A stretch of DNA of 64,000 nt from assembly GCA_001548435.1 (NCBI GenBank), contig AP017308.1, positions 503,030 through 567,029 of the forward strand, in the 5' to 3' direction. Made by a program: the position numbers and the translations under genes. This DNA is from Leptolyngbya sp. NIES-3755. GTDB taxonomy: Bacteria; Cyanobacteriota; Cyanobacteriia; Leptolyngbyales; Leptolyngbyaceae. The notes below the pieces were generated by a model. That model was not told the origin of the DNA. It made no database searches and worked only from the letters and a program-made list of their open reading frames with translations. Below are positions 11,215 to 52,259 of the stretch, piece after piece. Every line of letters starts with the position of its first letter. Positions within the stretch are counted from its first letter, which is position 1.

Positions 11215-12363
11215 ATGGTGCAAACAACGATTGAAGCAATGTTGAAACAGAAGATTGGATTAGATGCAAATAGTATTGGATCAAACGCGATCGCTTATGT
11301 CATTGATCAGCGTCGATCGCGCTGCGGTTCTCCCAATCTCAATGACTATTACGATCGTTTGCAACATTCACCCGAAGAACTTAATGCCTTAATTGAAGCG
11401 GTTGTTGTTCCTGAAACTTGGTTTTTTCGCGATCGAGAACCTTTTGCCTATCTAAAGCAATGGATTCAGACTGAATGGAGGTCAACTACGAAATTGCGTG
11501 TTCTTTCTGCACCTTGTTCGACCGGAGAAGAACCGTATTCGATCGCGATCACATTGCTTGAATCAGGACTATCAACACAGCAGTTTGGAATTGATGCGAT
11601 CGACATTAGCCAAACTGTTTTAGAAAGAGCGAAAAAGGCAACGTATTCAAAGCGATCGTTTCGAGGAAATGCGTCTGCTAACTTGACGTACTTCGAGAAA
11701 ATTGGCGAGCAATATCAAGTACGATCGCACATTCGTAATACGGTTCAATTTGTTCGAGAAAATCTTGTAGAACCTCGGTTTATTCTCGATCGACACTATG
11801 ATGTGATTTTTTGTCGAAACTTGTTGATTTATCTCGATCAAGAATCGCGATCGCAAGTGATGAAAATTCTCGATCGAGCTTTAGCGACTCCTGGCGTATT
11901 GTTCTTAGGTGCAGTAGAAACATCACAAGTTCCATTCAATACTTATCAACCAGTTCATCACTCTGGTGCATTTGCTTATCGAAAAGTAGAGCGATCAGAA
12001 CCCGCACCGCTCAGAATCCCAATTATTCAATCGTTACCGCCACTAAAGTCATTTCCAAAGCTTCCGAAATTAGAGCAAGTAAAACAATGTTTGGCACAAG
12101 GGAAACTCACCGAAGCAGCACGACTTTGTGAAGCTTATCTAATGAACGATCGAACCGATACAAACGCTTACTTTCTTCTCAGCAAAATCTATCAGGAACT
12201 TAAACAACTTCCTCAAGCAGAACAAGCTTTACAAAAAGCGATTTATCTTAATCCTAAATTCTATGATGCCTTGATTGAATTAGCAGTGTTGAAAGAGCAA
12301 CAAGGAGATTTTACAACCGCAAAGATTCTCAGAGCAAGAGTTCAAAGACTTCTCAATTTATAA
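11215..12363 (+). CDS. CheR-type MCP methyltransferase with C-terminal TPR repeats (WspC-like)
   Basis: CheR N-terminal and SAM-binding motifs (ETWFFRD, LSAPCSTGEEPYSIAI), followed by C-terminal TPRs. Confidence 0.85.
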   Translation: MVQTTIEAMLKQKIGLDANSIGSNAIAYVIDQRRSRCGSPNLNDYYDRLQHSPEELNALIEAVVVPETWFFRDREPFAYLKQWIQTEWRSTTKLRVLSAPCSTGEEPYSIAITLLESGLSTQQFGIDAIDISQTVLERAKKATYSKRSFRGNASANLTYFEKIGEQYQVRSHIRNTVQFVRENLVEPRFILDRHYDVIFCRNLLIYLDQESRSQVMKILDRALATPGVLFLGAVETSQVPFNTYQPVHHSGAFAYRKVERSEPAPLRIPIIQSLPPLKSFPKLPKLEQVKQCLAQGKLTEAARLCEAYLMNDRTDTNAYFLLSKIYQELKQLPQAEQALQKAIYLNPKFYDALIELAVLKEQQGDFTTAKILRARVQRLLNL

Positions 12364-12373
12364 GGTTATTCCT

Positions 12374-13969
12374 ATGCTAAACAGAATCACAAATCGAATT
12401 TTACTCGGTTATTCTATTCCGCTAATCTTTCTGATTATCCTGAGCGCGATCGTCTATCGATCAACAACCCGCACGTTTCAACTCCAAGCCCAAGCCCAAC
12501 AAGCTGAGCGAAATATCCGACAGACTAACGAACTTGTTGAAGGCATCAATCGGATGATTGGCGCGGGTCGGGGTTACTATATCTTTCCAGGGCAGCAGGA
12601 CTTTATCAAAACTTACAGTGCGGGACTGCGACAAGCAAACGAGAAGGCTCAGCAGTTACAATCGACCAATAATCCGATTGTTCGCAATGCAACAGGTGAA
12701 CTTTCGCAGTTAGTTGAACAGTATGATGATGTGTTTCAAAGTGCGTTTCGATCGATTAACCAGCGTAACTTGGCGCAAGCCAGAGCAGAACTCGCAAAGC
12801 CTAGAATTGTCGATGTGTTGGAACGACGCGATCGGGTGGTGAGTGAGCTTCAGAACGAACTCAATCAGATCAATCAATCGGTTGCTGAATCTCAAGGATT
12901 TTTGCTGAGATTGATTGTGATTGGAACGACGCTGACTGTGATTTCAACGATCATCGTTGGACTGTTGAATACTTTGCCTCTGAAGCGTCAACTGCCTAAA
13001 GTGGTGAATGCAGCGGAAGCGATCGCAGATGGCAATCTAACTCATTCGCTGGGTGAAACGAAAGATAAAACTGAGGTGGGTCAATTGCTGGCTGCATTTC
13101 AGAACATGATCAAAAGCTTGAATGGTTTGATTTCTCAGGCTCAGCGATCGGGCATTCAAATCAGTACTTCAACCACACAGATCGCGGCGGCTGGCAAACA
13201 ATTAGAAGCAACAGTTAACGAGCAATTTGCCTCAATGAATGAAGTGAATGCGACAGCACGACAGATTGCAATGACAGCAGGGAACTTAGCACGATCGATG
13301 GATGAGGTGGTGAAAACAGCCCAAGAAACAACTCATGCAGCGACAGATAGTCAGACGAACTTAGATAAGATTCAGTCTGCGATGCAAAGACTTGGATATG
13401 CGACGAATTCGATCTCATCTAAGTTGAAAGTGATGGATGAGAAAGCGAACAATATCAATACTGTTGTCACTACCATTACGAAGGTGGCGGATCAAACGAA
13501 TTTACTATCTCTGAATGCTGCGATCGAGGCAGAAAAAGCGGGAGAATATGGTGCTGGATTCGCTGTGGTTGCCCGTGAGATTCGACGTTTAGCCGATCAA
13601 GCCGCAGTTGCGACTCTGGAAATCGAACAGATGGTAAAAGAAATGCAATCCTCGGTTTCAACAGGTGTAATTGAAGTTGATAAATTTCGTGGGGAAGTGA
13701 AGCAATATGTGGATGAAGTTGGCAATGTGAGTCAGCAGATTGAAAGCTTTATCGGTGATGTGCAAGGACTGACACCCAGATTTGTTACCGTCAGTCAAAG
13801 CATGGATGAGCAATATCGAGGAGCCGAGCAGATTAGTACTGCGATCGCTCAATTGCGAGATGCGTCTCAACAAACTGTACAGTCGATTCAGGAAACGAAC
13901 TATGCACTGACTCAATTAGACGATGCGACACGGGGCTTGCAGCGTGAAATTTCACAATTCAAGGTGTAA
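12374..13969 (+). CDS. Methyl-accepting chemotaxis protein with CHASE3-like periplasmic sensor, HAMP and MA domains (WspA-equivalent)
   Basis: Two TM segments flank a region of about 150 aa with a GRGYYIF...Y motif like the CHASE3 domain of the histidine kinase at 53571. HAMP and the highly conserved MA signalling core (LLSLNAAIEAEKAGEYGAGFAVVAREIRRLADQ) follow. Confidence 0.85.
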   Translation: MLNRITNRILLGYSIPLIFLIILSAIVYRSTTRTFQLQAQAQQAERNIRQTNELVEGINRMIGAGRGYYIFPGQQDFIKTYSAGLRQANEKAQQLQSTNNPIVRNATGELSQLVEQYDDVFQSAFRSINQRNLAQARAELAKPRIVDVLERRDRVVSELQNELNQINQSVAESQGFLLRLIVIGTTLTVISTIIVGLLNTLPLKRQLPKVVNAAEAIADGNLTHSLGETKDKTEVGQLLAAFQNMIKSLNGLISQAQRSGIQISTSTTQIAAAGKQLEATVNEQFASMNEVNATARQIAMTAGNLARSMDEVVKTAQETTHAATDSQTNLDKIQSAMQRLGYATNSISSKLKVMDEKANNINTVVTTITKVADQTNLLSLNAAIEAEKAGEYGAGFAVVAREIRRLADQAAVATLEIEQMVKEMQSSVSTGVIEVDKFRGEVKQYVDEVGNVSQQIESFIGDVQGLTPRFVTVSQSMDEQYRGAEQISTAIAQLRDASQQTVQSIQETNYALTQLDDATRGLQREISQFKV

Positions 13970-13972
13970 GTC

Positions 13973-14635
13973 ATGGTCACGATCGAAGAAATCAGCGATT
14001 GTTGGAATCAGATCGGCGCAGAAGGCGATCGCAGTTGTGATCAGCTTAAACAGATGACGCATTGCCATAATTGCCCAGTGTTTGCGAAATCTGGAAGCTT
14101 GTTATTAGAGCGAGAAGTTCCGAGTGAGTATATTCAGGAATGGACGAACACGATCGCAGAACGTGGATCAGCCCTGAGTTTGCGATCGACTGAGGAAATG
14201 CTTTCACTGATTCTGTTCCGGTTGGGAAATGAACAGTTCGCAATTTCAGTACGATCGCTACAAGAAGTGATTCGTCTAGCTCGAATTCATACTCTGCCCC
14301 ATCGCAGCAATTCTCTATTTTTAGGTCTGACTAGCATTCGAGGCGAAATCTTACTTTGTGCATCTCTCAGAGAGTTTCTGAACTTAGAGCCTGCTGCATC
14401 ATCAGGACGCGAACAAATGCTAGTCGTGGGAACAACTCAGCGTAAATGGGTGTTTCCAGTCGATGAAGTGTATGGAATTCACCGCTATCCCTTACGAGAG
14501 ATTCAAGATCCGCCTGTTGTTCTGCTCAAAACAAATTCAGCTTATACACAAGGGATTGTTAACTGGAACGATCAGAAAGTGAACTATCTGAATGCAGAAT
14601 TGCTCATTGACACGCTTGATCGGAGATTGCTATGA
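13973..14635 (+). CDS. CheW-like coupling protein with N-terminal Cys-cluster extension (WspD-equivalent)
   Basis: CheW domain (LILFRLGNEQFAISVRSLQEV...). The N-terminal 40 aa carry C-x12-C-x8-C-H-N-C. Confidence 0.75.
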   Translation: MVTIEEISDCWNQIGAEGDRSCDQLKQMTHCHNCPVFAKSGSLLLEREVPSEYIQEWTNTIAERGSALSLRSTEEMLSLILFRLGNEQFAISVRSLQEVIRLARIHTLPHRSNSLFLGLTSIRGEILLCASLREFLNLEPAASSGREQMLVVGTTQRKWVFPVDEVYGIHRYPLREIQDPPVVLLKTNSAYTQGIVNWNDQKVNYLNAELLIDTLDRRLL

Positions 14636-17430
14636 GCTATTCAATGCGCGATCTGTTTCAGCAAGAAACGAGTACTCAAGTCGATCGCTTAAAACAATGT
14701 TTAACTCGTTTACAGCAACAGCCTGATCAAAAAGATGAGATTGATACGGCTTTGCATTCGATTCGTGCGATCGTGGGCGCGGCTCATTTGATCGAATTTA
14801 CGGCTGCGATTCATTTAGCAGAGGTGATGCAATCTTGTTTGAATGCCGCTTATCAGGATCGGCGACCTTTAACTCCTGAGAGACTAGAAGCATTGCTGCA
14901 TGGCTGTACTTTGCTTTCTCAGATGAGTCAGCTTGAGGAAACGGAACAATGGTTGTCGAATCATGGCGAGGATCTAGAGAAAACAGAAAAGTCGATCGAG
15001 GAAACATCGTCTGCTGAAGTGAATGGATCATTGAACAATGGTGTGCCCTCACCCCCAGCCCCTCTCCCAGAAGGAGAGGGGGGCAAGAATTCTAGTTCCC
15101 TCTCCCCTAGGGAGAGGGTTAGGGTGAGGGCTACAACCGATTCAAACGAAGCGAATACACCTCAATTGCTGATAGAAGAGCCACCTGAGTCTTCTCCTCA
15201 AAGCCTTGTTCAAGATGATCCGGAATTGATGGAATTGTTTCGGCAAGAAGTCGAAGCACAAACGATTACATTGAATCGGGGATTAGTCGCGATCGAAGCT
15301 CATCCCAATTCCCGTCAAGAGCTTGAATCCCTCATGAGAGCCGCACACTCAATCAAAGGAGCCGCTCGAATTGTTGGGCTAGATGTTGCAGTCGAATTAG
15401 CGCATCAGATGGAGGATTGCTTTGTAGCGGCTCAGAAACAATCTTTTAAGATCAATGCAGCCATGATCGATGCGTTGTTTCGCGGTGTCGATCTAATTCA
15501 ATCGATTAGCCAAACCCAGAATGTTCAACAATGGCTTTCTCAACATCGTTCTGACCTTGAATCTGTTCATCAATTGCTGTCTTCTGATGCTGCTCCCGTT
15601 TCACAGCCCGTTCCACAACCTGTTCCTACTCCTGCACCGATTTCTCCAAAGATCGAACCTCCAGAGCCTGAAGTGAACACACAGAGCAATACACGTGAAC
15701 GCGATGCCTCCGGCACACGGGAACGTGACCGAGTGGTTCGCATTAGTGCCGATAACTTAAATCGCATTGTTGGACTGGCTGGTGAATCAATGGTTGAAGC
15801 GTATTGGCTCCAGCCCTTTGCAGAATCATTGATGGAACTCCGATCGAAACAAATCGCGCTCTCAAAAGCTCTAGAAGATCTGCAACAATCGCATCCGATC
15901 GAGCAGTTAGAGACACTGCGGCAACAAGAGCGAGAATGTCGGGATTCATTAAGCGATCGTATTGCTGAACTCGGTGAATACATTCGACGGACTGATAATT
16001 TGTCCGATCGCTTATATCGAGAGGTGATTCAATCTCAGATGCGACCGTTTGCGGATGGAGTGCAGGGTTTCCCACGAATGGTACGAGACTTGTCGCGACA
16101 GATTGGAAAGCAAGTCAACTTCTCGATCGTTGGAGAGAATACGCCTGTCGATCGAGATATTTTGACCAAGCTCGAAGCTCCGATTACTCATATTTTGCGA
16201 AATGCGATCGATCACGGAATCGAGTCGCCTGAAGACCGGATTAAAGCTGGAAAATCCGCAGAGGGAACGATTCAACTCGAAGCTTCTCATCGGGGTGGAA
16301 TGTTGATGATTAGCATTTCTGATGATGGAAAAGGGATAGATGTCGATCGGGTTCGCAAACAGGTGATTCGTCGCCATCTTGCACCGCCAGAATTTGCGAG
16401 ACGAATGAGCCACGGTGAATTGATGGAATTTCTCTTTTTGCCTGGTTTTTCGCTCTCGAAACAAGTGACAGAGCTATCCGGGCGCGGTGTTGGATTGGAT
16501 ATTGTGAAAGCGATGGCGCAGGAGGTCGGAGGTTCTGTTCGTGCAACCTCTTCACTCGGTTCGGGTACAAGTTTTCACTTGCAGTTACCGCTTACCTTGT
16601 CAGTCGTGCGAACATTGCTGGTCGAGGTTTCGGGTGAACAATATGCGTTCCCTTTGTCGCGGATCGATCGAATTCTCAGTCTCGATCGAGCTTCGATTTC
16701 TGTGGTCGAAAATCAGCCTTACTTTACCTTTAATGATCAACATATTGGATTGATTTCGCTGAATCAAGTGTTTGATCTACAGCAATCTAGTTCACTGTCT
16801 GAATCGCTGTGTGTGATTGTTTTAAGTTATCAATCAGCGCAGTATGGATTAATTGTCGATCGAACATTGGGAGAGCGAGAATTAGTAGTACGCCCGCTCG
16901 ATCCACGTCTTGGAAAAGTTCAAGATATCGGTGCTGCATCATTGATGAGTGATGGTTCATTAGTTCTGATTGTCGATGTTTCGGATTTAGTTCGATCGAT
17001 TAATAAACTATTAGATGCTGGAAAGCTCACAGCACCACGCACCGTTGAGACTGAACAACCGAAAAAACGTATTCTTGTTGTCGATGATTCGATTACAGTA
17101 CGGGAAGTAGAGCGAAAATTATTAGAAAAACACGGATACAGTGTGGATGTCGCGATCGATGGAATGGAAGGTTGGAATGCGGTTCGCAATCAGTCTTATG
17201 ATTTAGTCATTAGTGATGTTGATATGCCTAGAATGAATGGAATCGAGTTAATTCAACAGATTAAGAGTCATGCTCGACTACGATCGACTCCGGTAATCGT
17301 TGTGTCTTATCGCGATCGAGAATCCGATCGATTGCAAGGATTAGATGCAGGAGCCAATTATTATTTAACAAAAAATAGTTTTCAAGATGATACTTTGATT
17401 CAAGCTGTCGTTGATTTGATTGGGCAGTAA
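14632..17430 (+). CDS. Hybrid CheA histidine kinase: degenerate Hpt, canonical Hpt (HSIKGAA), HATPase_c, CheW-like and C-terminal receiver (WspE-like)
   Basis: Two Hpt-like segments, H-box/N/G1/G2 kinase motifs, CheW-like domain, C-terminal REC (ILVVDDS...DLVISDVDMPRMNG). 4-bp overlap with the upstream gene. Confidence 0.9.
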   Translation: MSYSMRDLFQQETSTQVDRLKQCLTRLQQQPDQKDEIDTALHSIRAIVGAAHLIEFTAAIHLAEVMQSCLNAAYQDRRPLTPERLEALLHGCTLLSQMSQLEETEQWLSNHGEDLEKTEKSIEETSSAEVNGSLNNGVPSPPAPLPEGEGGKNSSSLSPRERVRVRATTDSNEANTPQLLIEEPPESSPQSLVQDDPELMELFRQEVEAQTITLNRGLVAIEAHPNSRQELESLMRAAHSIKGAARIVGLDVAVELAHQMEDCFVAAQKQSFKINAAMIDALFRGVDLIQSISQTQNVQQWLSQHRSDLESVHQLLSSDAAPVSQPVPQPVPTPAPISPKIEPPEPEVNTQSNTRERDASGTRERDRVVRISADNLNRIVGLAGESMVEAYWLQPFAESLMELRSKQIALSKALEDLQQSHPIEQLETLRQQERECRDSLSDRIAELGEYIRRTDNLSDRLYREVIQSQMRPFADGVQGFPRMVRDLSRQIGKQVNFSIVGENTPVDRDILTKLEAPITHILRNAIDHGIESPEDRIKAGKSAEGTIQLEASHRGGMLMISISDDGKGIDVDRVRKQVIRRHLAPPEFARRMSHGELMEFLFLPGFSLSKQVTELSGRGVGLDIVKAMAQEVGGSVRATSSLGSGTSFHLQLPLTLSVVRTLLVEVSGEQYAFPLSRIDRILSLDRASISVVENQPYFTFNDQHIGLISLNQVFDLQQSSSLSESLCVIVLSYQSAQYGLIVDRTLGERELVVRPLDPRLGKVQDIGAASLMSDGSLVLIVDVSDLVRSINKLLDAGKLTAPRTVETEQPKKRILVVDDSITVREVERKLLEKHGYSVDVAIDGMEGWNAVRNQSYDLVISDVDMPRMNGIELIQQIKSHARLRSTPVIVVSYRDRESDRLQGLDAGANYYLTKNSFQDDTLIQAVVDLIGQ
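15046..15130. repeat. GC-rich nested-palindrome mini-element inserted in-frame in the cheA inter-Hpt linker (small-dispersed-repeat/MITE-like)
   Basis: CCCTCACCC...CCCCTCTCCCAGAAGGAGAGGGG...CCCTCTCCCCTAGGGAGAGGG...GGGTGAGGG. Outer arms pair with each other and two inner hairpins form. It is translated as PSPPAPLPEGEGGKNSSSLSPRERVRVRA inside an otherwise ordinary CheA linker. Confidence 0.55.
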
Positions 17431-17433
17431 GCG

Positions 17434-18408
17434 ATGAGAATTGCGATCGTCAATGATTTAAGTTTGGCTGTAGAAGCCTTGCGCCGAACGGTCAAACAAG
17501 TTCCACAGCATGAGATTGCTTGGGTCGCTTACACAGGTCTGGAAGCGGTGAATAAATGCGCCCACGATCGCCCTGACTTGATTTTGATGGATTTATTTAT
17601 GCCTGAGATGGATGGCATTGAGGCGACAAAGCTGATTATGCAGCGATCGCCCTGTGCGATTTTGGTTGTTACGGCAGATGTGCAACATAGTTCTGCAAAA
17701 GTGTTTGAAGCAATGGGCTATGGTGCGTTAGATGCGGTGAATACGCCAACTTTAGGGAAAGAAAATGCTCACTTGTTGCTATCGAAAATTAAGACGATCG
17801 GGAAATTGATCGGAAAGTCCGAGTTTGTACCAATTCAGGCTAAAGTCCCTCTAGTGGTGATTGGTGCTTCGACTGGAGGACCAAAAGCGATCGTGACTAT
17901 TCTCTCTCAGTTACCACCCGATTTTGGAGCCGCGATCGTGATTGTTCAGCATGTCGATGTGCAGTTCGCCGCTGGCATGATTGATTGGTTAGATCAGCAA
18001 ACCGTATTAAAAGTGAAAAAAGCGCAGGTTGGCGATCGACCCACGAAAGGTATGGTTTTATTCGCATCGACTAATGATCATCTCTGTTTACAGGCGAATG
18101 GAACATTGACTTATACGCCGTATCCAAAGAGCTATCCTTACCGTCCCTCGGTGGATGTTTTCTTCAAAAGCGTGGCGCAGTATTGGAGCGATCGAGGAAC
18201 TGCGATTTTGCTCACAGGCATGGGACGCGATGGCGCAGAAGGCTTGAAAGCGTTGCGGCTTCAGGGATGGTATACGATCGCTCAAAGTGAATCGAGTTGT
18301 GTCGTTTATGGAATGCCTAAAGCTGCGATCGAGCTAAATGCTGCGGTCGATGTTCTGACTCCCGAAGCGATCGCAACCGCTTTATTGCACCGTTCACATC
18401 AACATTAG
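17434..18408 (+). CDS. cheB: CheB protein-glutamate methylesterase (REC plus methylesterase; WspF-like)
   Basis: REC ([14 protein letters not shown]) plus CheB_methylest ([14 protein letters not shown]...VQHVD) with catalytic Ser/His/Asp. Confidence 0.9.
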
Positions 18409-18410
18409 TC

Positions 18411-19901
18411 ATGAGCGATTCTATTACTGTTCTCCTCATCGACGATCAAGCCATCATCAGCGAAGCCATCCAGAAAATGTTGGCTCCAGAATCGGATATC
18501 AAATTCCACTATTGCAACAATCCACTAGAAGCGCTAAAGGTTGCGAAACAGTGCAATCCGACTGTGATTTTGCAAGATTTGGTGATGCCGCAGATGGATG
18601 GATTGTTACTGGTGCGATTTCTGCGATCGCAAGATGCTCCAACGGCTGATGTTCCTCTAATTGTGCTATCGAGCAAAGAAGAACCTGTGATTAAAGCTCA
18701 AGCGTTTGAACTAGGGGCAAATGATTATTTGGTGAAATTGCCCGATCGTGTTGAGTTGATTGCTCGAATTCGCTATCACTCCAGAGCTTATATCAACTTA
18801 CGCAAACGTCAGGAAGCAGAAGCGCAATTACGCGATGAGAACTTGCGGCAAGCTCAATACATTGAACAAGTGAATAAGCTAACGAAAGCAGCAGTTTCTG
18901 TTGAAGATAATAGTTTTAGACCAGAAGATTTAGAAGAAGTCAGCGATCGACCTGATGAACTGGGTCAACTCTCGCGGGTGTTTGTGCAAATGGTCGATAC
19001 GGTGAACACACGAGAACAAGAACTAAAGCGATTGAATGAGTCGTTTGCTCGATTCTTCCCTGGTGAATATCTGCAATTTCTGCGAAAAGAATCGGTGACA
19101 GAGGTGCAGTTAGGCGACTATGTAAGTAAAACGATGGCAGTGATGTTTAGTGATATTCGAGCATTTACAAGTATCTCTGAATCGATGACACCGCAGGAGA
19201 ATTTCGCTTTCGTGAATGCTTACTTGAAGCGTGTCAGTCCAGAAATTCGCAATCACTACGGCATTATTGTGAAATTCTTAGGTGACGGAATGATGGCAGT
19301 GTTTCCAGATGGTGCGGATGATGCGGTCGCGGCGGGCGTTGCGAAACAGCTTCGGGTGCAGGAATACAATGTCGATCGAATGGAACGAGGCTTTTTACCT
19401 GTGCAAGTTGGAATTGGAATTCATGTCGGGCACATGATGTTAGGCATGGTCGGGGAAACAAATCGAATTCAAGGTGATGCGTTCTCAGATAATGTGAATC
19501 TGACCTCTCGACTCGAAGGATTGACCAAATACTACGGCGTATCAATGCTGATTTCTGGTCAGACTTTGGAGTATTTGAGCAATCCGGATCAATATCAATT
19601 TCGGTTTCTCGATCGAGCGATCGTCAAAGGTCGAATTGAACCGATTACGGTGTACGAAGTGTTAGATGCTGAAACTGAAGAGAATCGTCAAATCAAACTA
19701 CAAACTCAATCGATTTACGATCAAGGAATTGAACACTATCGACAACAGGAATTTGATCAAGCGAGATCTCGTTTTAAGGAAGTTCTAGAGGCAAATCCAG
19801 ACGATAAAACGGCGCGGCTGTATGTCGATCGCGTCACTGAATTGCTCGATCGAGGAGTGCCCGAAGATTGGACGGATGCTTGGGCGTTTAGCGAGAAATA
19901 A
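18411..19901 (+). CDS. Response regulator fused to class III adenylyl/guanylyl cyclase (CHD) domain with C-terminal TPR-like tail
   Basis: REC (LLIDDQ...ILQDLVMPQMDG); coiled-coil linker; CHD (MFSDIRAFTSISE...KFLGDGMMAVF...GDAFSDNVNLTSRLE). Lys and Asp sit at the adenine-specifying positions. Confidence 0.8.
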   Translation: MSDSITVLLIDDQAIISEAIQKMLAPESDIKFHYCNNPLEALKVAKQCNPTVILQDLVMPQMDGLLLVRFLRSQDAPTADVPLIVLSSKEEPVIKAQAFELGANDYLVKLPDRVELIARIRYHSRAYINLRKRQEAEAQLRDENLRQAQYIEQVNKLTKAAVSVEDNSFRPEDLEEVSDRPDELGQLSRVFVQMVDTVNTREQELKRLNESFARFFPGEYLQFLRKESVTEVQLGDYVSKTMAVMFSDIRAFTSISESMTPQENFAFVNAYLKRVSPEIRNHYGIIVKFLGDGMMAVFPDGADDAVAAGVAKQLRVQEYNVDRMERGFLPVQVGIGIHVGHMMLGMVGETNRIQGDAFSDNVNLTSRLEGLTKYYGVSMLISGQTLEYLSNPDQYQFRFLDRAIVKGRIEPITVYEVLDAETEENRQIKLQTQSIYDQGIEHYRQQEFDQARSRFKEVLEANPDDKTARLYVDRVTELLDRGVPEDWTDAWAFSEK

Positions 19902-51949: not shown

Positions 51950-52259
51950 TTGGAATCTCTCCTAAAGGATGAAGAAAGCAGACACAAATTAGACGCAATG
52001 CAACGAGTGTCTAGCGGGTCGAGTTTAGAAAAATCTCAAAAATCGATCGCGCTTTAGATTCAGCTAAATGAATAGCAACTTAACAAATCTAAACGGATCA
52101 ATCAGGTTAAACAAACCTCTGTTTAAAAGGTTGGAAGCCAAGAGTCAATATTAAATCGCAAAAGCCAGATCAGCCTCAACCACTTAATACTCACTCCAGA
52201 CTTCCAAACCAGTCGAGAACGCTAGAGAATGAAGGAAACCCTCACCCTTTATCAATCTC

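What the first reader, a model, noticed from the sequence alone, without database searches (positions are those of the whole stretch)
15046..15130. GC-rich nested palindromic mini-element inserted in-frame inside cheA
An approximately 85-nt segment with three nested hairpins (outer arms CCCTCACCC/GGGTGAGGG; inner CCCCTCTCCC-AGAA-GGAGAGGGG and CCCTCTCCCC-TA-GGGAGAGGG) interrupts the linker between the two Hpt domains. It is translated as a Pro/Gly/Arg-rich peptide (PLPEGEGG...LSPRERVRVRA). Its composition is unlike the flanking AT-richer coding sequence. This is the behaviour described for very small dispersed repeats (SDR/MITE-like elements) in filamentous cyanobacteria, which insert into genes while preserving the frame. 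Here it sits in a signalling kinase, where it could alter linker length or flexibility, or form an RNA structure affecting translation.
Basis: partly seen in the sequence, partly recalled or inferred. Interest (0 to 1): 0.6.

Follow-up and report, generated by a model that had tools for sequence, protein, structure and literature searches.

The report
Pan-bacterial BoxC repeat pair inside kinase gene
An 87-base palindromic repeat found almost letter for letter from E. coli to cyanobacteria (the 'BoxC' or intrastrand-triplex motif) sits in frame in the floppy linker of a chemotaxis-type kinase and adds 29 amino acids. It is a known repeat family in an unusual, translated place, and its core blocks have stayed unchanged far longer than neutral drift allows.

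Summary
Window 15045-15131 is an 87-nt nested palindrome, the only one in the 64 kb. It lies in frame (29 codons) in the disordered linker between the two Hpt domains of a WspE-like hybrid CheA (14632-17430).

It is not a cyanobacteria-specific SDR. It is two inverted copies of the pan-bacterial BoxC / PIT / intrastrand triplex motif (TM): CCCTCTCCC-loop-GGGAGAGGG-TTA-GGGTGAGGG. One copy is type A and one is type B-like, the same pairing reported in E. coli K-12. The right unit matches TMECO no. 17 at 31 of 34 bases. Its 21-mer occurs in at least 120 genome stretches, mostly non-cyanobacterial.

Among the orthologues, the doublet is intact in window, AN03gr2 and P0002. It is wrecked and carries a second nested doublet in NIES-2104. 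It is undetectable in P0003 and P0005, and its peptide is absent from more distant orthologues.

The six 9-nt blocks show 0/54 and 2/54 differences, where synonymous sites differ by 29% and 60%. Loops and spacers drift at about the synonymous rate.

Full doublets also lie in frame in other cyanobacterial genes (PglX, an exonuclease, DNA methyltransferases).

Verdict: a known repeat family in an atypical translated position. Copy number in the source genome is untested.

The parts
15045..15131 (.). Whole 87-nt palindromic doublet: two inverted triplex-motif (BoxC/PIT/TM) units with tails outward. It equals 29 codons, read in frame.
   Evidence: Searches give the sequence, inverted repeats and fold z-scores. 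One search aligns it with independent full-length copies from cyanobacterial and Enterobacter plasmids.
15045..15081 (-). Left unit, read on the minus strand: CCCTCTCCT-TCT-GGGAGAGGG-GCTGG-GGGTGAGGG-C. It is type B-like (CTG-type second loop) with one mismatch in the pyrimidine block.
   Evidence: 8/9 Watson-Crick pairs and 9/9 purine-motif triads. Compared with TMECO type B sequences in Table 1 of PMC4666352.
15082..15097 (.). 16-nt spacer GGCAAGAATTCTAGTT, with the internal palindrome AGAATTCT (15086-15093).
   Evidence: The spacer is loosely conserved among independent cyanobacterial doublets (GAGCAAGAA..TTCT.GTT). It matches AN03gr2 at 15/16 and P0002 at 11/16, so these copies are orthologous.
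15098..15131 (+). Right unit, type A: CCCTCTCCC-CTA-GGGAGAGGG-TTA-GGGTGAGGG-C. It also fits a canonical G3N3G3N3G3N3G3 quadruplex motif on the coding strand.
   Evidence: 9/9 Watson-Crick pairs and 9/9 triads. It is identical at 31/34 to E. coli TMECO no. 17 (Table 1, PMC4666352). The 21-mer is found in at least 120 genome stretches.
14632..17430 (+). Host gene: a hybrid CheA-like kinase (WspE-like) with Hpt-linker-Hpt, HATPase_c, CheW and REC domains.
   Evidence: one source names orthologues 'WspE'.
15007..15201 (+). Predicted disordered inter-Hpt linker (residues 126-190). It wholly contains the doublet.
   Evidence: AlphaFold2 pLDDT is 32-42 over residues 126-190. The flanking helical Hpt bundles (5-123 and 197-316) are mostly above 90.

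Best explanation
The segment is an inverted pair (one type A unit plus one type B-like unit, tails outward, 16-nt spacer) of the pan-bacterial BoxC / PIT / intrastrand-triplex-motif repeat.

History. It entered the DNA that encodes the disordered tether between the two Hpt domains of a WspE-like CheA in an ancestor of a Leptolyngbya subclade. It survives because it is 87 nt long, is open in the frame used, and lies in a linker whose length and sequence are free to vary. It therefore simply adds 29 Pro/Gly/Ser/Arg/Glu-rich residues.

DNA level (inferred from the published biophysics of the family, not shown here). When single-stranded, each unit can fold into a 9-bp homopurine/homopyrimidine hairpin onto which the adjacent GGGTGAGGG block folds as a third strand. 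Alternatively it can form a G-quadruplex. Together the two units can form a long cruciform or hairpin. Such structures are reported to stall polymerases in vitro and to mark rearrangement-prone loci. This fits the behaviour of this linker, which ranges from 189 to 357 nt among six close orthologues and has taken up a second, different triplex-type doublet inside the first in NIES-2104.

Kinase. The element most likely has no dedicated role in the kinase.

Open point. The nucleotide sequence of its six blocks is held constant much more tightly than synonymous sites. This indicates sequence-specific constraint on the DNA or RNA. Its cause is unknown.
For: Identity with the family:
- Block-for-block match to the TMECO sequences, including the A+B inverted pairing.
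- The right-end 21-mer is in at least 120 genome stretches from many phyla.
- BoxC = PIT = TM according to PMC4666352.

Dispersed doublet as a unit:
- Full-length copies at about 80% identity on plasmids of Kovacikia, Fremyella/Tolypothrix, Leptolyngbya BL0902, Pseudanabaena, Nostoc and Enterobacter.

Tolerated in frame:
- The linker is disordered.
- Other in-frame copies lie in PglX, an exonuclease and DNA methyltransferases. One of these genes carries 4 doublets plus 2 single units, read in three phases.

Age and orthology:
- Tree ((window,AN03gr2),((P0003,P0005),(NIES2104,P0002))), each node 200/200.
- Intact in window, AN03gr2 and P0002 with the same 16-nt spacer and the same right flank.
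- pS is 0.29 and 0.60.

Constraint:
- Blocks differ at 0/54 and 2/54. Loops, linkers and spacer differ at 7/33 and 16/33 (Fisher p = 7e-4 and 9e-7).
- Third-codon positions in blocks differ at 0/18 and 0/18 (p = 0.002 and 8e-8 against pS).

Instability:
- The NIES-2104 copy is wrecked at only pS 0.24 from P0002 and carries a nested G5-type doublet.
- In Nostoc pglX a doublet replaces 33 nt, a net gain of 21 codons, with no target duplication.
Against: - No second copy was found in the 64-kb window or in about 67 kb of orthologous loci. Multi-copy status in the source genome is therefore unproven.
- P0003 and P0005 show no significant remnant. The choice between a single ancestral insertion with later loss and two insertions at the same site is therefore not settled.
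- Triplex or quadruplex formation was not detected in duplex DNA or in vivo in E. coli (PMC4666352), and nothing was measured here.
- The strong conservation of the blocks sits uneasily with a purely neutral-passenger reading.
- The constraint estimate rests on three sequences.
Confidence: 0.8

Rival explanations
1. One reading: a cyanobacteria-specific small dispersed repeat (SDR) or MITE-like element that recently inserted into cheA.
For: It is a small palindromic dispersed element that lies in frame in a cyanobacterial gene. Similar copies lie in frame in other cyanobacterial genes. In NIES-2104 one element is nested inside another, which recalls, from my memory of Elhai et al. 2008, how SDRs behave.
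Against: The units match E. coli BoxC/TMECO almost base for base. The 21-mer is overwhelmingly found outside cyanobacteria. The insertion is old (pS up to 0.60 between carriers). No target-site duplication was seen. The SDR paper could not be read, so no SDR consensus was compared.
Confidence: 0.08
2. A REPIN-like element: the doublet is the mobile unit and is moved as single-stranded DNA by a RAYT or IS200/IS605-type HUH (Y1) transposase that recognises the subterminal hairpins. This concerns how the element spreads and is compatible with the best explanation.
For: The architecture is two inverted about 35-nt palindromic units with a short spacer, forming one long hairpin. The whole doublet, including a loosely conserved spacer, recurs at unrelated loci. 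There is no target-site duplication, and the Nostoc pglX case is not a clean insertion.
Against: No RAYT or Y1 transposase was looked for in the window. None is annotated on the P. galeata plasmid that carries 14 units. The GTAG tag appears only by chance in window and AN03gr2 and not in other copies. REP families are normally species-specific, whereas this sequence spans phyla. Holder et al. found no link to mobile elements.
Confidence: 0.2
3. A locally functional nucleic-acid element: the blocks are kept by selection because the DNA or mRNA structure does something at this locus. Possibilities are a ribosome or polymerase pause between the two Hpt domains, a protein-binding site, or a programmed recombination hot spot.
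For: The blocks are about ten times more conserved than synonymous sites, while loops drift at about the synonymous rate. There are no compensatory double changes, so it is the primary sequence that is kept and not just the pairing. The coding strand carries a perfect G3N3 quadruplex motif. The mRNA hairpin is very stable.
Against: Three of the six closest lineages have lost the structure with the gene intact. More distant orthologues never show it. In E. coli the family showed no promoter, terminator or polymerase effects in vivo (PMC4666352 introduction). The same blocks are conserved in intergenic copies across phyla, so the constraint need not relate to CheA.
Confidence: 0.2
4. Chance, in-situ origin from linker drift, or an assembly artefact.
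For: None beyond the general variability of the linker.
Against: Shuffle controls exclude chance. The sequence equals a known repeat family. The same doublet is present in independent assemblies: GCA_050565645.1 and two Logan runs.
Confidence: 0.01

Closest known systems
BoxC / PIT elements / intrastrand triplex motif TM (TMECO) of E. coli and more than 260 other bacteria (Hoyne et al. 2000; Holder et al. 2015, PMC4666352)
   Same: The same three 9-nt blocks and the same loop types (TTA for type A, C(C/T)G-type for type B). The same pairing of A with B in inverted orientation with a spacer of about 16 nt. Loops are less conserved than blocks. It is associated with a locally rearranged region.
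   Different: Here it is inside a coding sequence and translated, whereas E. coli TMECOs are 'always intergenic'. The tails point outward, whereas four of the five K-12 pairs by the Table 1 coordinates, including hrpB-mrcB, have tails inward. Copy number in the source genome is unknown.
HPGQ 'G-quadruplex-hairpin-duplex switch' motif of E. coli (Kaplan et al. 2016, PMC5100583)
   Same: The same sequence family, read as a G3N3 quadruplex competing with the hairpin. The right unit here fits G3-AGA-G3-TTA-G3-TGA-G3.
   Different: It was proposed as an upstream regulatory motif. Here it is intragenic. No structural data were obtained here.
Rickettsia palindromic elements (RPE; Ogata et al. 2000) and other repeats fused in frame into genes (reviewed by Delihas 2011, PMC3184786)
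   Same: A palindromic selfish repeat inserted in frame in protein-coding genes and translated, tolerated in surface or linker regions.
   Different: The sequence family is unrelated. RPEs are 105-146 nt and restricted to one genus. The present family spans phyla and is mainly intergenic elsewhere.
REPINs (REP doublets forming hairpins; Bertels and Rainey 2011, PMC3116915)
   Same: Two inverted short palindromic units separated by a short spacer. The doublet recurs as a unit.
   Different: No associated RAYT is known or was found. The sequence is not species-specific.
Small dispersed repeats (SDR) of Nostoc (Elhai et al. 2008; cited from memory, paper not held)
   Same: Very small elements in cyanobacteria that nest in other repeats.
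   Different: SDRs are described, as I recall, as 21-27 nt and specific to heterocystous cyanobacteria. No sequence comparison was possible.

Membership tests
BoxC / PIT / triplex motif (TM) | Three consecutive blocks: pyrimidine block, short loop, complementary purine block, short loop, purine-rich third block that is the mirror of the purine block (G.G-C, A.A-T, T.A-T triads) | tested here: met
   Right unit: 9/9 Watson-Crick pairs and 9/9 triads. Left unit (minus strand): 8/9 and 9/9.
BoxC / PIT / triplex motif (TM) | Sequence match to the TMECO consensus (CCCTCTCCC..GGGAGAGGG-TTA or CCG-GGGTGAGGG) | tested here: met
   The right unit is 31/34 identical to TMECO no. 17. The left unit has a CTG-type loop like TMECO no. 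8 (Table 1 of PMC4666352).
BoxC / PIT / triplex motif (TM) | Occurs as type A plus type B inverted pairs at some loci | tested here: met
   Window: B-like unit on the minus strand and A unit on the plus strand, with a 16-nt spacer. E. coli has five A+B pairs. At hrpB-mrcB the spacer is also 16 nt but the tails point inward.
BoxC / PIT / triplex motif (TM) | Many copies per genome | not testable with these tools
   Only one locus in the 64-kb window and none elsewhere in about 67 kb of orthologous loci. Other cyanobacterial replicons do carry many, for example 14 units on one plasmid.
BoxC / PIT / triplex motif (TM) | Intergenic location (E. coli: 'always located intergenically') | tested here: not met
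   It lies inside ORF 14632-17430, in frame. This is a property described for E. coli rather than a structural definition. Other cyanobacterial copies are also intragenic.
BoxC / PIT / triplex motif (TM) | Actually forms an intrastrand triplex | not testable with these tools
   Shown in vitro for E. coli oligonucleotides by CD and NMR, and not detected in duplex DNA or in vivo (PMC4666352). Only Watson-Crick folding could be computed here.
MITE | Terminal inverted repeats | tested here: met
   GCCCTCACCC / GGGTGAGGGC, 10 bp.
MITE | Target-site duplication flanking the element | tested here: not met
   The flanks GTGTG|..|CTACA show no direct repeat. None is seen in 11 other copies. The filled versus empty pglX alleles show a replacement without duplication.
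MITE | A related autonomous IS with the same terminal repeats | not tested
   No search was made. None is evident among the transposases annotated on P. galeata pPg_03.
REPIN / REP-RAYT | Two inverted REP units with a short spacer that form one hairpin | tested here: met
REPIN / REP-RAYT | A cognate RAYT (Y1 transposase) gene flanked by the repeats | not tested
   The window ORFs were not screened for Y1_Tnp. No such gene is annotated on the TM-rich plasmid examined.
REPIN / REP-RAYT | A conserved GTAG or CGTC tetranucleotide tag at one end (Di Nocera et al. 2013, known to me only from the abstract) | tested here: not met
   GGGC-TAC gives GTAG on the minus strand in window and AN03gr2 only. 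It is absent from P0002 and from the plasmid copies.
Cyanobacterial SDR (Elhai 2008) | Match to an SDR1-8 consensus (21-27 nt; recalled from memory) | not testable with these tools
   The paper is not held. The pan-bacterial distribution argues against a cyanobacteria-specific family.

The most novel reading that the evidence does not exclude
The six 9-nt BoxC/TM blocks are kept by purifying selection on the nucleotide sequence itself, even when they are translated inside a free-to-vary protein linker. This would mean that the motif is recognised or used by the cell, through a protein, a triplex or a quadruplex. Intragenic copies come with a built-in neutral clock (synonymous sites), so they could finally make the 30-year-old question of what BoxC/PIT elements do testable by comparative genomics. 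A corollary is that in cyanobacteria these doublets are a recurrent source of in-frame peptide insertions. The other examples found, all from plasmid searches, lie in large defence-type genes.
Probability: 0.3. Interest if true: 0.65.

Novelty: new member of a known kind. Interest (0 to 1): 0.45.

Why it matters
BoxC/PIT/triplex motifs have been known since the 1990s, are conserved across phyla and still have no accepted function or mode of spread. This case and the other cyanobacterial cases found here show three things:
- The doublet can be carried and translated inside genes.
- It marks an indel-prone spot in a signalling-kinase tether.
- Its blocks resist change while the surrounding synonymous sites saturate.

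If the last point holds in larger samples, it gives a clean quantitative handle on the selective constraint on these repeats. For annotation, Pro/Gly/Arg-rich stretches such as PSPPAPLP.GEG.. / ..LSPRER.RVR in cyanobacterial proteins can be recognised as translated repeat DNA rather than functional motifs.

Tried and rejected
- Peptide search for other proteins carrying the translated doublet. The query was first too short and then found no candidate, not even the known orthologue. This was uninformative and cost one search.
- Metagenome scan for the window-specific spacer GGGGCAAGAATTCTNGTTCCCTC: 0 hits. There is therefore no evidence for recent copies of this exact subfamily.
- Rfam: only sub-threshold chance matches to miRNA hairpins and whalefall-1.
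- Test for decayed remnants in P0003 and P0005. The global alignment looked suggestive (26/39 identical), but local scores were no better than shuffles (226/500, 80/500, 321/500 and 318/500 shuffles scored as well). I therefore do not claim a remnant there. For NIES-2104 the spacer match is modestly significant (8/500), and both outer ends are collinear.
- Counting intragenic hits among the 120 genome loci by open-frame length. This is unreliable in GC-rich genomes and was not used.
- The Elhai 2008 SDR paper is not held.
- The E. coli K-12 record carries no repeat annotation at the hrpB-mrcB BoxC pair.
- The signature scan of the 120 best CheA homologues matched only P0001. It also missed P0002, which carries the intact doublet in DNA, so its sensitivity is limited.
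Full report
**What is there**

Window 15045-15131 reads GCCCTCACCCCCAGCCCCTCTCCCAGAAGGAGAGGGGGGCAAGAATTCTAGTTCCCTCTCCCCTAGGGAGAGGGTTAGGGTGAGGGC. It contains:
- two perfect 9-bp hairpins, 15059-15067/15073-15081 and 15098-15106/15110-15118;
- a 10-bp outer inverted repeat.

As RNA it folds at -64.7 kcal/mol, and no shuffle among 200 does as well (z = -5.8). As DNA both strands give z of about -4.4 to -5.1. The hairpin pattern and the 9-mers GGAGAGGGG and GGGTGAGGG are essentially confined to this spot in the 64 kb. The palindrome is 87 nt, not 85. That is 29 codons.

**The host gene**

ORF 14632-17430 encodes a 932-aa hybrid kinase with two Hpt domains, HATPase_c, CheW and a receiver domain. 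It sits in a Wsp-like cluster:
- CheR-TPR
- CHASE3-HAMP-MCP
- CheW
- this CheA-REC
- CheB
- REC-HAMP-class III nucleotidyl cyclase

One source names the orthologues 'WspE'. AlphaFold2 with 28 homologues predicts two confident helical bundles (residues 5-123 and 197-316). They are joined by a coil with pLDDT of 32-42 (residues 126-190). The element encodes residues 139-167, PSPPAPLPEGEGGKNSSSLSPRERVRVR(A), entirely within that coil.

The window carries 59 HIP1 octamers where 1.85 are expected. The closest homologue is from Leptolyngbya sp. AN03gr2 (92%). The source is therefore a Leptolyngbya-like cyanobacterium.

**What the element is**

Only four were cyanobacterial. The rest were Pseudomonas, Azospirillum, Rhizobium/Ensifer, Enterobacteriaceae, Dehalococcoidia/Chloroflexota, Planctomycetota, Acidobacteriota, Nitrospirota and others. 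In nearly all of them the 21-mer is preceded by (C)CCCTCTCCC and a 3-10-nt loop.

A full-text search for the two 9-mers led to two papers:
- Holder et al. 2015 (PMC4666352) describe exactly this sequence as the 'triplex motif' TM (TMECO in E. coli). It was formerly called BoxC and then PIT elements (Hoyne and Maher). It has 23 copies in E. coli K-12 and is present in more than 260 genomes. They report it as especially frequent in Enterobacteria and Cyanobacteria.
- Kaplan et al. 2016 (PMC5100583) read the same motif as a G-quadruplex/hairpin switch.

The window's right unit, CCCTCTCCC-CTA-GGGAGAGGG-TTA-GGGTGAGGG-C, differs from TMECO no. 17 only in two loop bases and the last base. It satisfies 9/9 Watson-Crick pairs and 9/9 purine-motif triads. 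The left unit, read on the minus strand, is CCCTCTCCT-TCT-GGGAGAGGG-GCTGG-GGGTGAGGG-C. It is a type B-like unit scoring 8/9 and 9/9.

Holder et al. report five E. coli loci where a type A and a type B unit form an inverted pair. The window element is such an A+B pair. At E. coli hrpB-mrcB the spacer is also 16 nt but the tails face inward. By the Table 1 coordinates, one K-12 pair has tails outward like the window, as do many copies in other phyla.

**The doublet is a dispersed unit in cyanobacteria**

blastn of the 97-nt region against PLSDB found 287 plasmids. Full-length doublets (at least 86% coverage, about 76-82% identity) occur on plasmids of:
- Kovacikia
- Fremyella/Tolypothrix
- Leptolyngbya sp. 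BL0902 (three plasmids)
- Pseudanabaena (up to 8 places per record)
- Nostoc
- Enterobacter

In the alignment, the left half CCCTCACCCCCAGCCCCTCTCCC is identical in several copies. The spacer shows a loose, itself palindromic, consensus. The flanks are unrelated and show no target-site duplication.

Some of these may be prophage calls that include host DNA. Holder et al. had reported no association with plasmids or phages.

**In-frame copies are recurrent**

Three of the full-length plasmid doublets lie inside annotated genes, and the open frame runs through each:
- a P. galeata DNA methyltransferase;
- Nostoc sp. ATCC 53789 PglX;
- a P. galeata 3'-5' exonuclease.

On P. galeata pPg_03, all 14 units found lie between 153 and 162 kb. 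One 1580-aa DNA methyltransferase gene carries four doublets, two single units and tandem partial units. All are in frame and are read in three different phases.

In pglX, Nostoc C052 and MS1 (94% and 90% identical) have an unrelated 33-nt stretch where ATCC 53789 has the 96-nt doublet. The net gain is 21 codons, with no duplication.

**History in this gene**

Of the 17 nearest orthologues, only P0001 (AN03gr2) and P0002 carry the peptide. The signature scan of the 120 best homologues picked out only P0001, so it also missed P0002.

DNA was retrieved for five orthologues and aligned. Each node of the tree ((window,AN03gr2),((P0003,P0005),(NIES2104,P0002))) has 200/200 bootstrap support. The state in each lineage is as follows:

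| Lineage | State of the doublet |
|---|---|
| window, AN03gr2, P0002 | Intact, with the same 16-nt spacer and the same right flank (TCAAACGAAGC within 8-14 nt) |
| NIES-2104 | Keeps both outer ends and a recognisable spacer (8/500 shuffles as good). It has lost the hairpins. It carries, nested inside, an inverted pair of a different, G5-type triplex unit (CCCCC-N-GGGGG-ATTTA-GGGGG) |
| P0003, P0005 | No triplex blocks and no statistically detectable remnant |

That G5-type unit is itself dispersed on Synechocystis, Pseudanabaena, Gloeocapsa and Picosynechococcus plasmids.

The simplest history is one insertion before the six lineages split, followed by decay or loss in three of them. Two insertions at the same site cannot be excluded.

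**Constraint**

Outside the linker, synonymous sites differ by 29% (window-AN03gr2) and 60% (window-P0002; dS about 1.2). Within the doublet:

| Comparison | pS | Blocks | Loops, linkers and spacer | Fisher p | Block third-codon positions (p against pS) |
|---|---|---|---|---|---|
| window vs AN03gr2 | 0.29 | 0/54 | 7/33 | 7e-4 | 0/18 (0.002) |
| window vs P0002 | 0.60 | 2/54 | 16/33 | 9e-7 | 0/18 (8e-8) |

The loops drift at roughly the synonymous rate. The copies are therefore old and orthologous rather than recently re-inserted or wholly converted.

The blocks keep the pan-bacterial consensus and show no compensatory double changes. It is therefore the primary sequence that is held, not merely the pairing. 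The protein cannot explain this, because the linker is otherwise unconstrained and all three codon positions are frozen.

There are two caveats. Only three sequences are involved. The window copy was picked because it looks perfect, although allowing only the other branch to carry the changes still leaves the result very unlikely under neutrality.

**How it most likely works**

Shown:
- The element belongs to the BoxC/TM family.
- It is read in frame.
- It lies in a disordered, length-variable tether. The linker is 189-357 nt in the six orthologues.
- It is old, and its blocks are constrained.
- The locus is rearrangement-prone.

Inferred from the literature on the family:
- Single-stranded units fold into a hairpin plus a third strand, or into a quadruplex.
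- They can block polymerases in vitro.
- They mark variable loci in E. coli.
- Purine-motif triplexes do not form in RNA. In the mRNA, only the long hairpin or an RNA quadruplex is plausible.

Inferred by me:
- The peptide is a neutral extension of the tether.
- The spreading mechanism may resemble that of REPINs (single-strand, hairpin-guided, no target duplication). No transposase was identified.

**Comparison and novelty**

The element passes the structural and sequence tests for BoxC/PIT/TM. It fails only the E. coli-based expectation of an intergenic location. It fails the MITE test for target duplication. It could not be tested for a cognate transposase or against the SDR consensus sequences.

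In-frame palindromic repeats in genes are a known phenomenon (RPE and others; PMC3184786). In the held library I found no paper that describes BoxC/TM doublets translated inside genes. That library is incomplete.

I therefore class this as a new member of a known kind. The block-versus-synonymous-rate contrast is the one observation that might repay a larger study.

Noticed in passing
L259-L262 (NZ_CP112877.1, Pseudanabaena galeata pPg_03) 153059-161749: All 14 triplex-motif units on this 175-kb plasmid cluster in a defence-like island (DEAD/DEAH helicase, exonuclease, DNA methyltransferase, helicase-related protein). One 1580-aa methyltransferase gene carries 4 doublets, 2 single units and tandem partial units, all in frame and in three different phases.
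   Followed up: partly
L005 3474-3573 (Leptolyngbya sp. NIES-2104 orthologue): A second, different triplex-type doublet (CCCCC-N-GGGGG-ATTTA-GGGGG units, tails outward) is nested inside the degraded BoxC doublet, and is also in frame. Its units are dispersed on Synechocystis, Pseudanabaena, Gloeocapsa and Picosynechococcus plasmids, sometimes inside annotated genes.
   Followed up: partly
L129 1500-1596 versus L137 and L138 (Nostoc pglX): A filled and an 'empty' allele at 94% identity. The 96-nt doublet replaces an unrelated 33-nt stretch (net +21 codons) with no target duplication. The 33-nt stretch itself contains CACCCTCACC.
   Followed up: partly
blastn of the 97-nt doublet region matched 287 plasmids. 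An earlier report found no association with phages or plasmids. The viral hits were not inspected and may include host flanks of prophages.
   Followed up: no
window 11215-19901: A Wsp-like chemosensory operon whose output protein is a REC-HAMP-class III adenylate/guanylate cyclase rather than a GGDEF protein. It has CheB and CheR and an MCP with a CHASE3 sensor. The operon is conserved in all five orthologous loci.
   Followed up: partly
window, whole: HIP1 (GCGATCGC) occurs 59 times where 1.85 are expected. This is the usual cyanobacterial signature.
   Followed up: yes
L133, L134 (Fremyella and Pseudanabaena ABRG5-3 plasmid copies): In variant units the hairpin purine block GGGAGAAGGGG and the tail GGGGATGAGGG both carry one extra A at mirror positions, while the partner tail of the doublet does not. 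This covariation fits the triplex (mirror-repeat) relation within a unit rather than tail-tail pairing.
   Followed up: no
window 52239-52247: A lone GGGTGAGGG 9-mer on the minus strand, with no adjacent hairpin. It is probably chance.
   Followed up: yes
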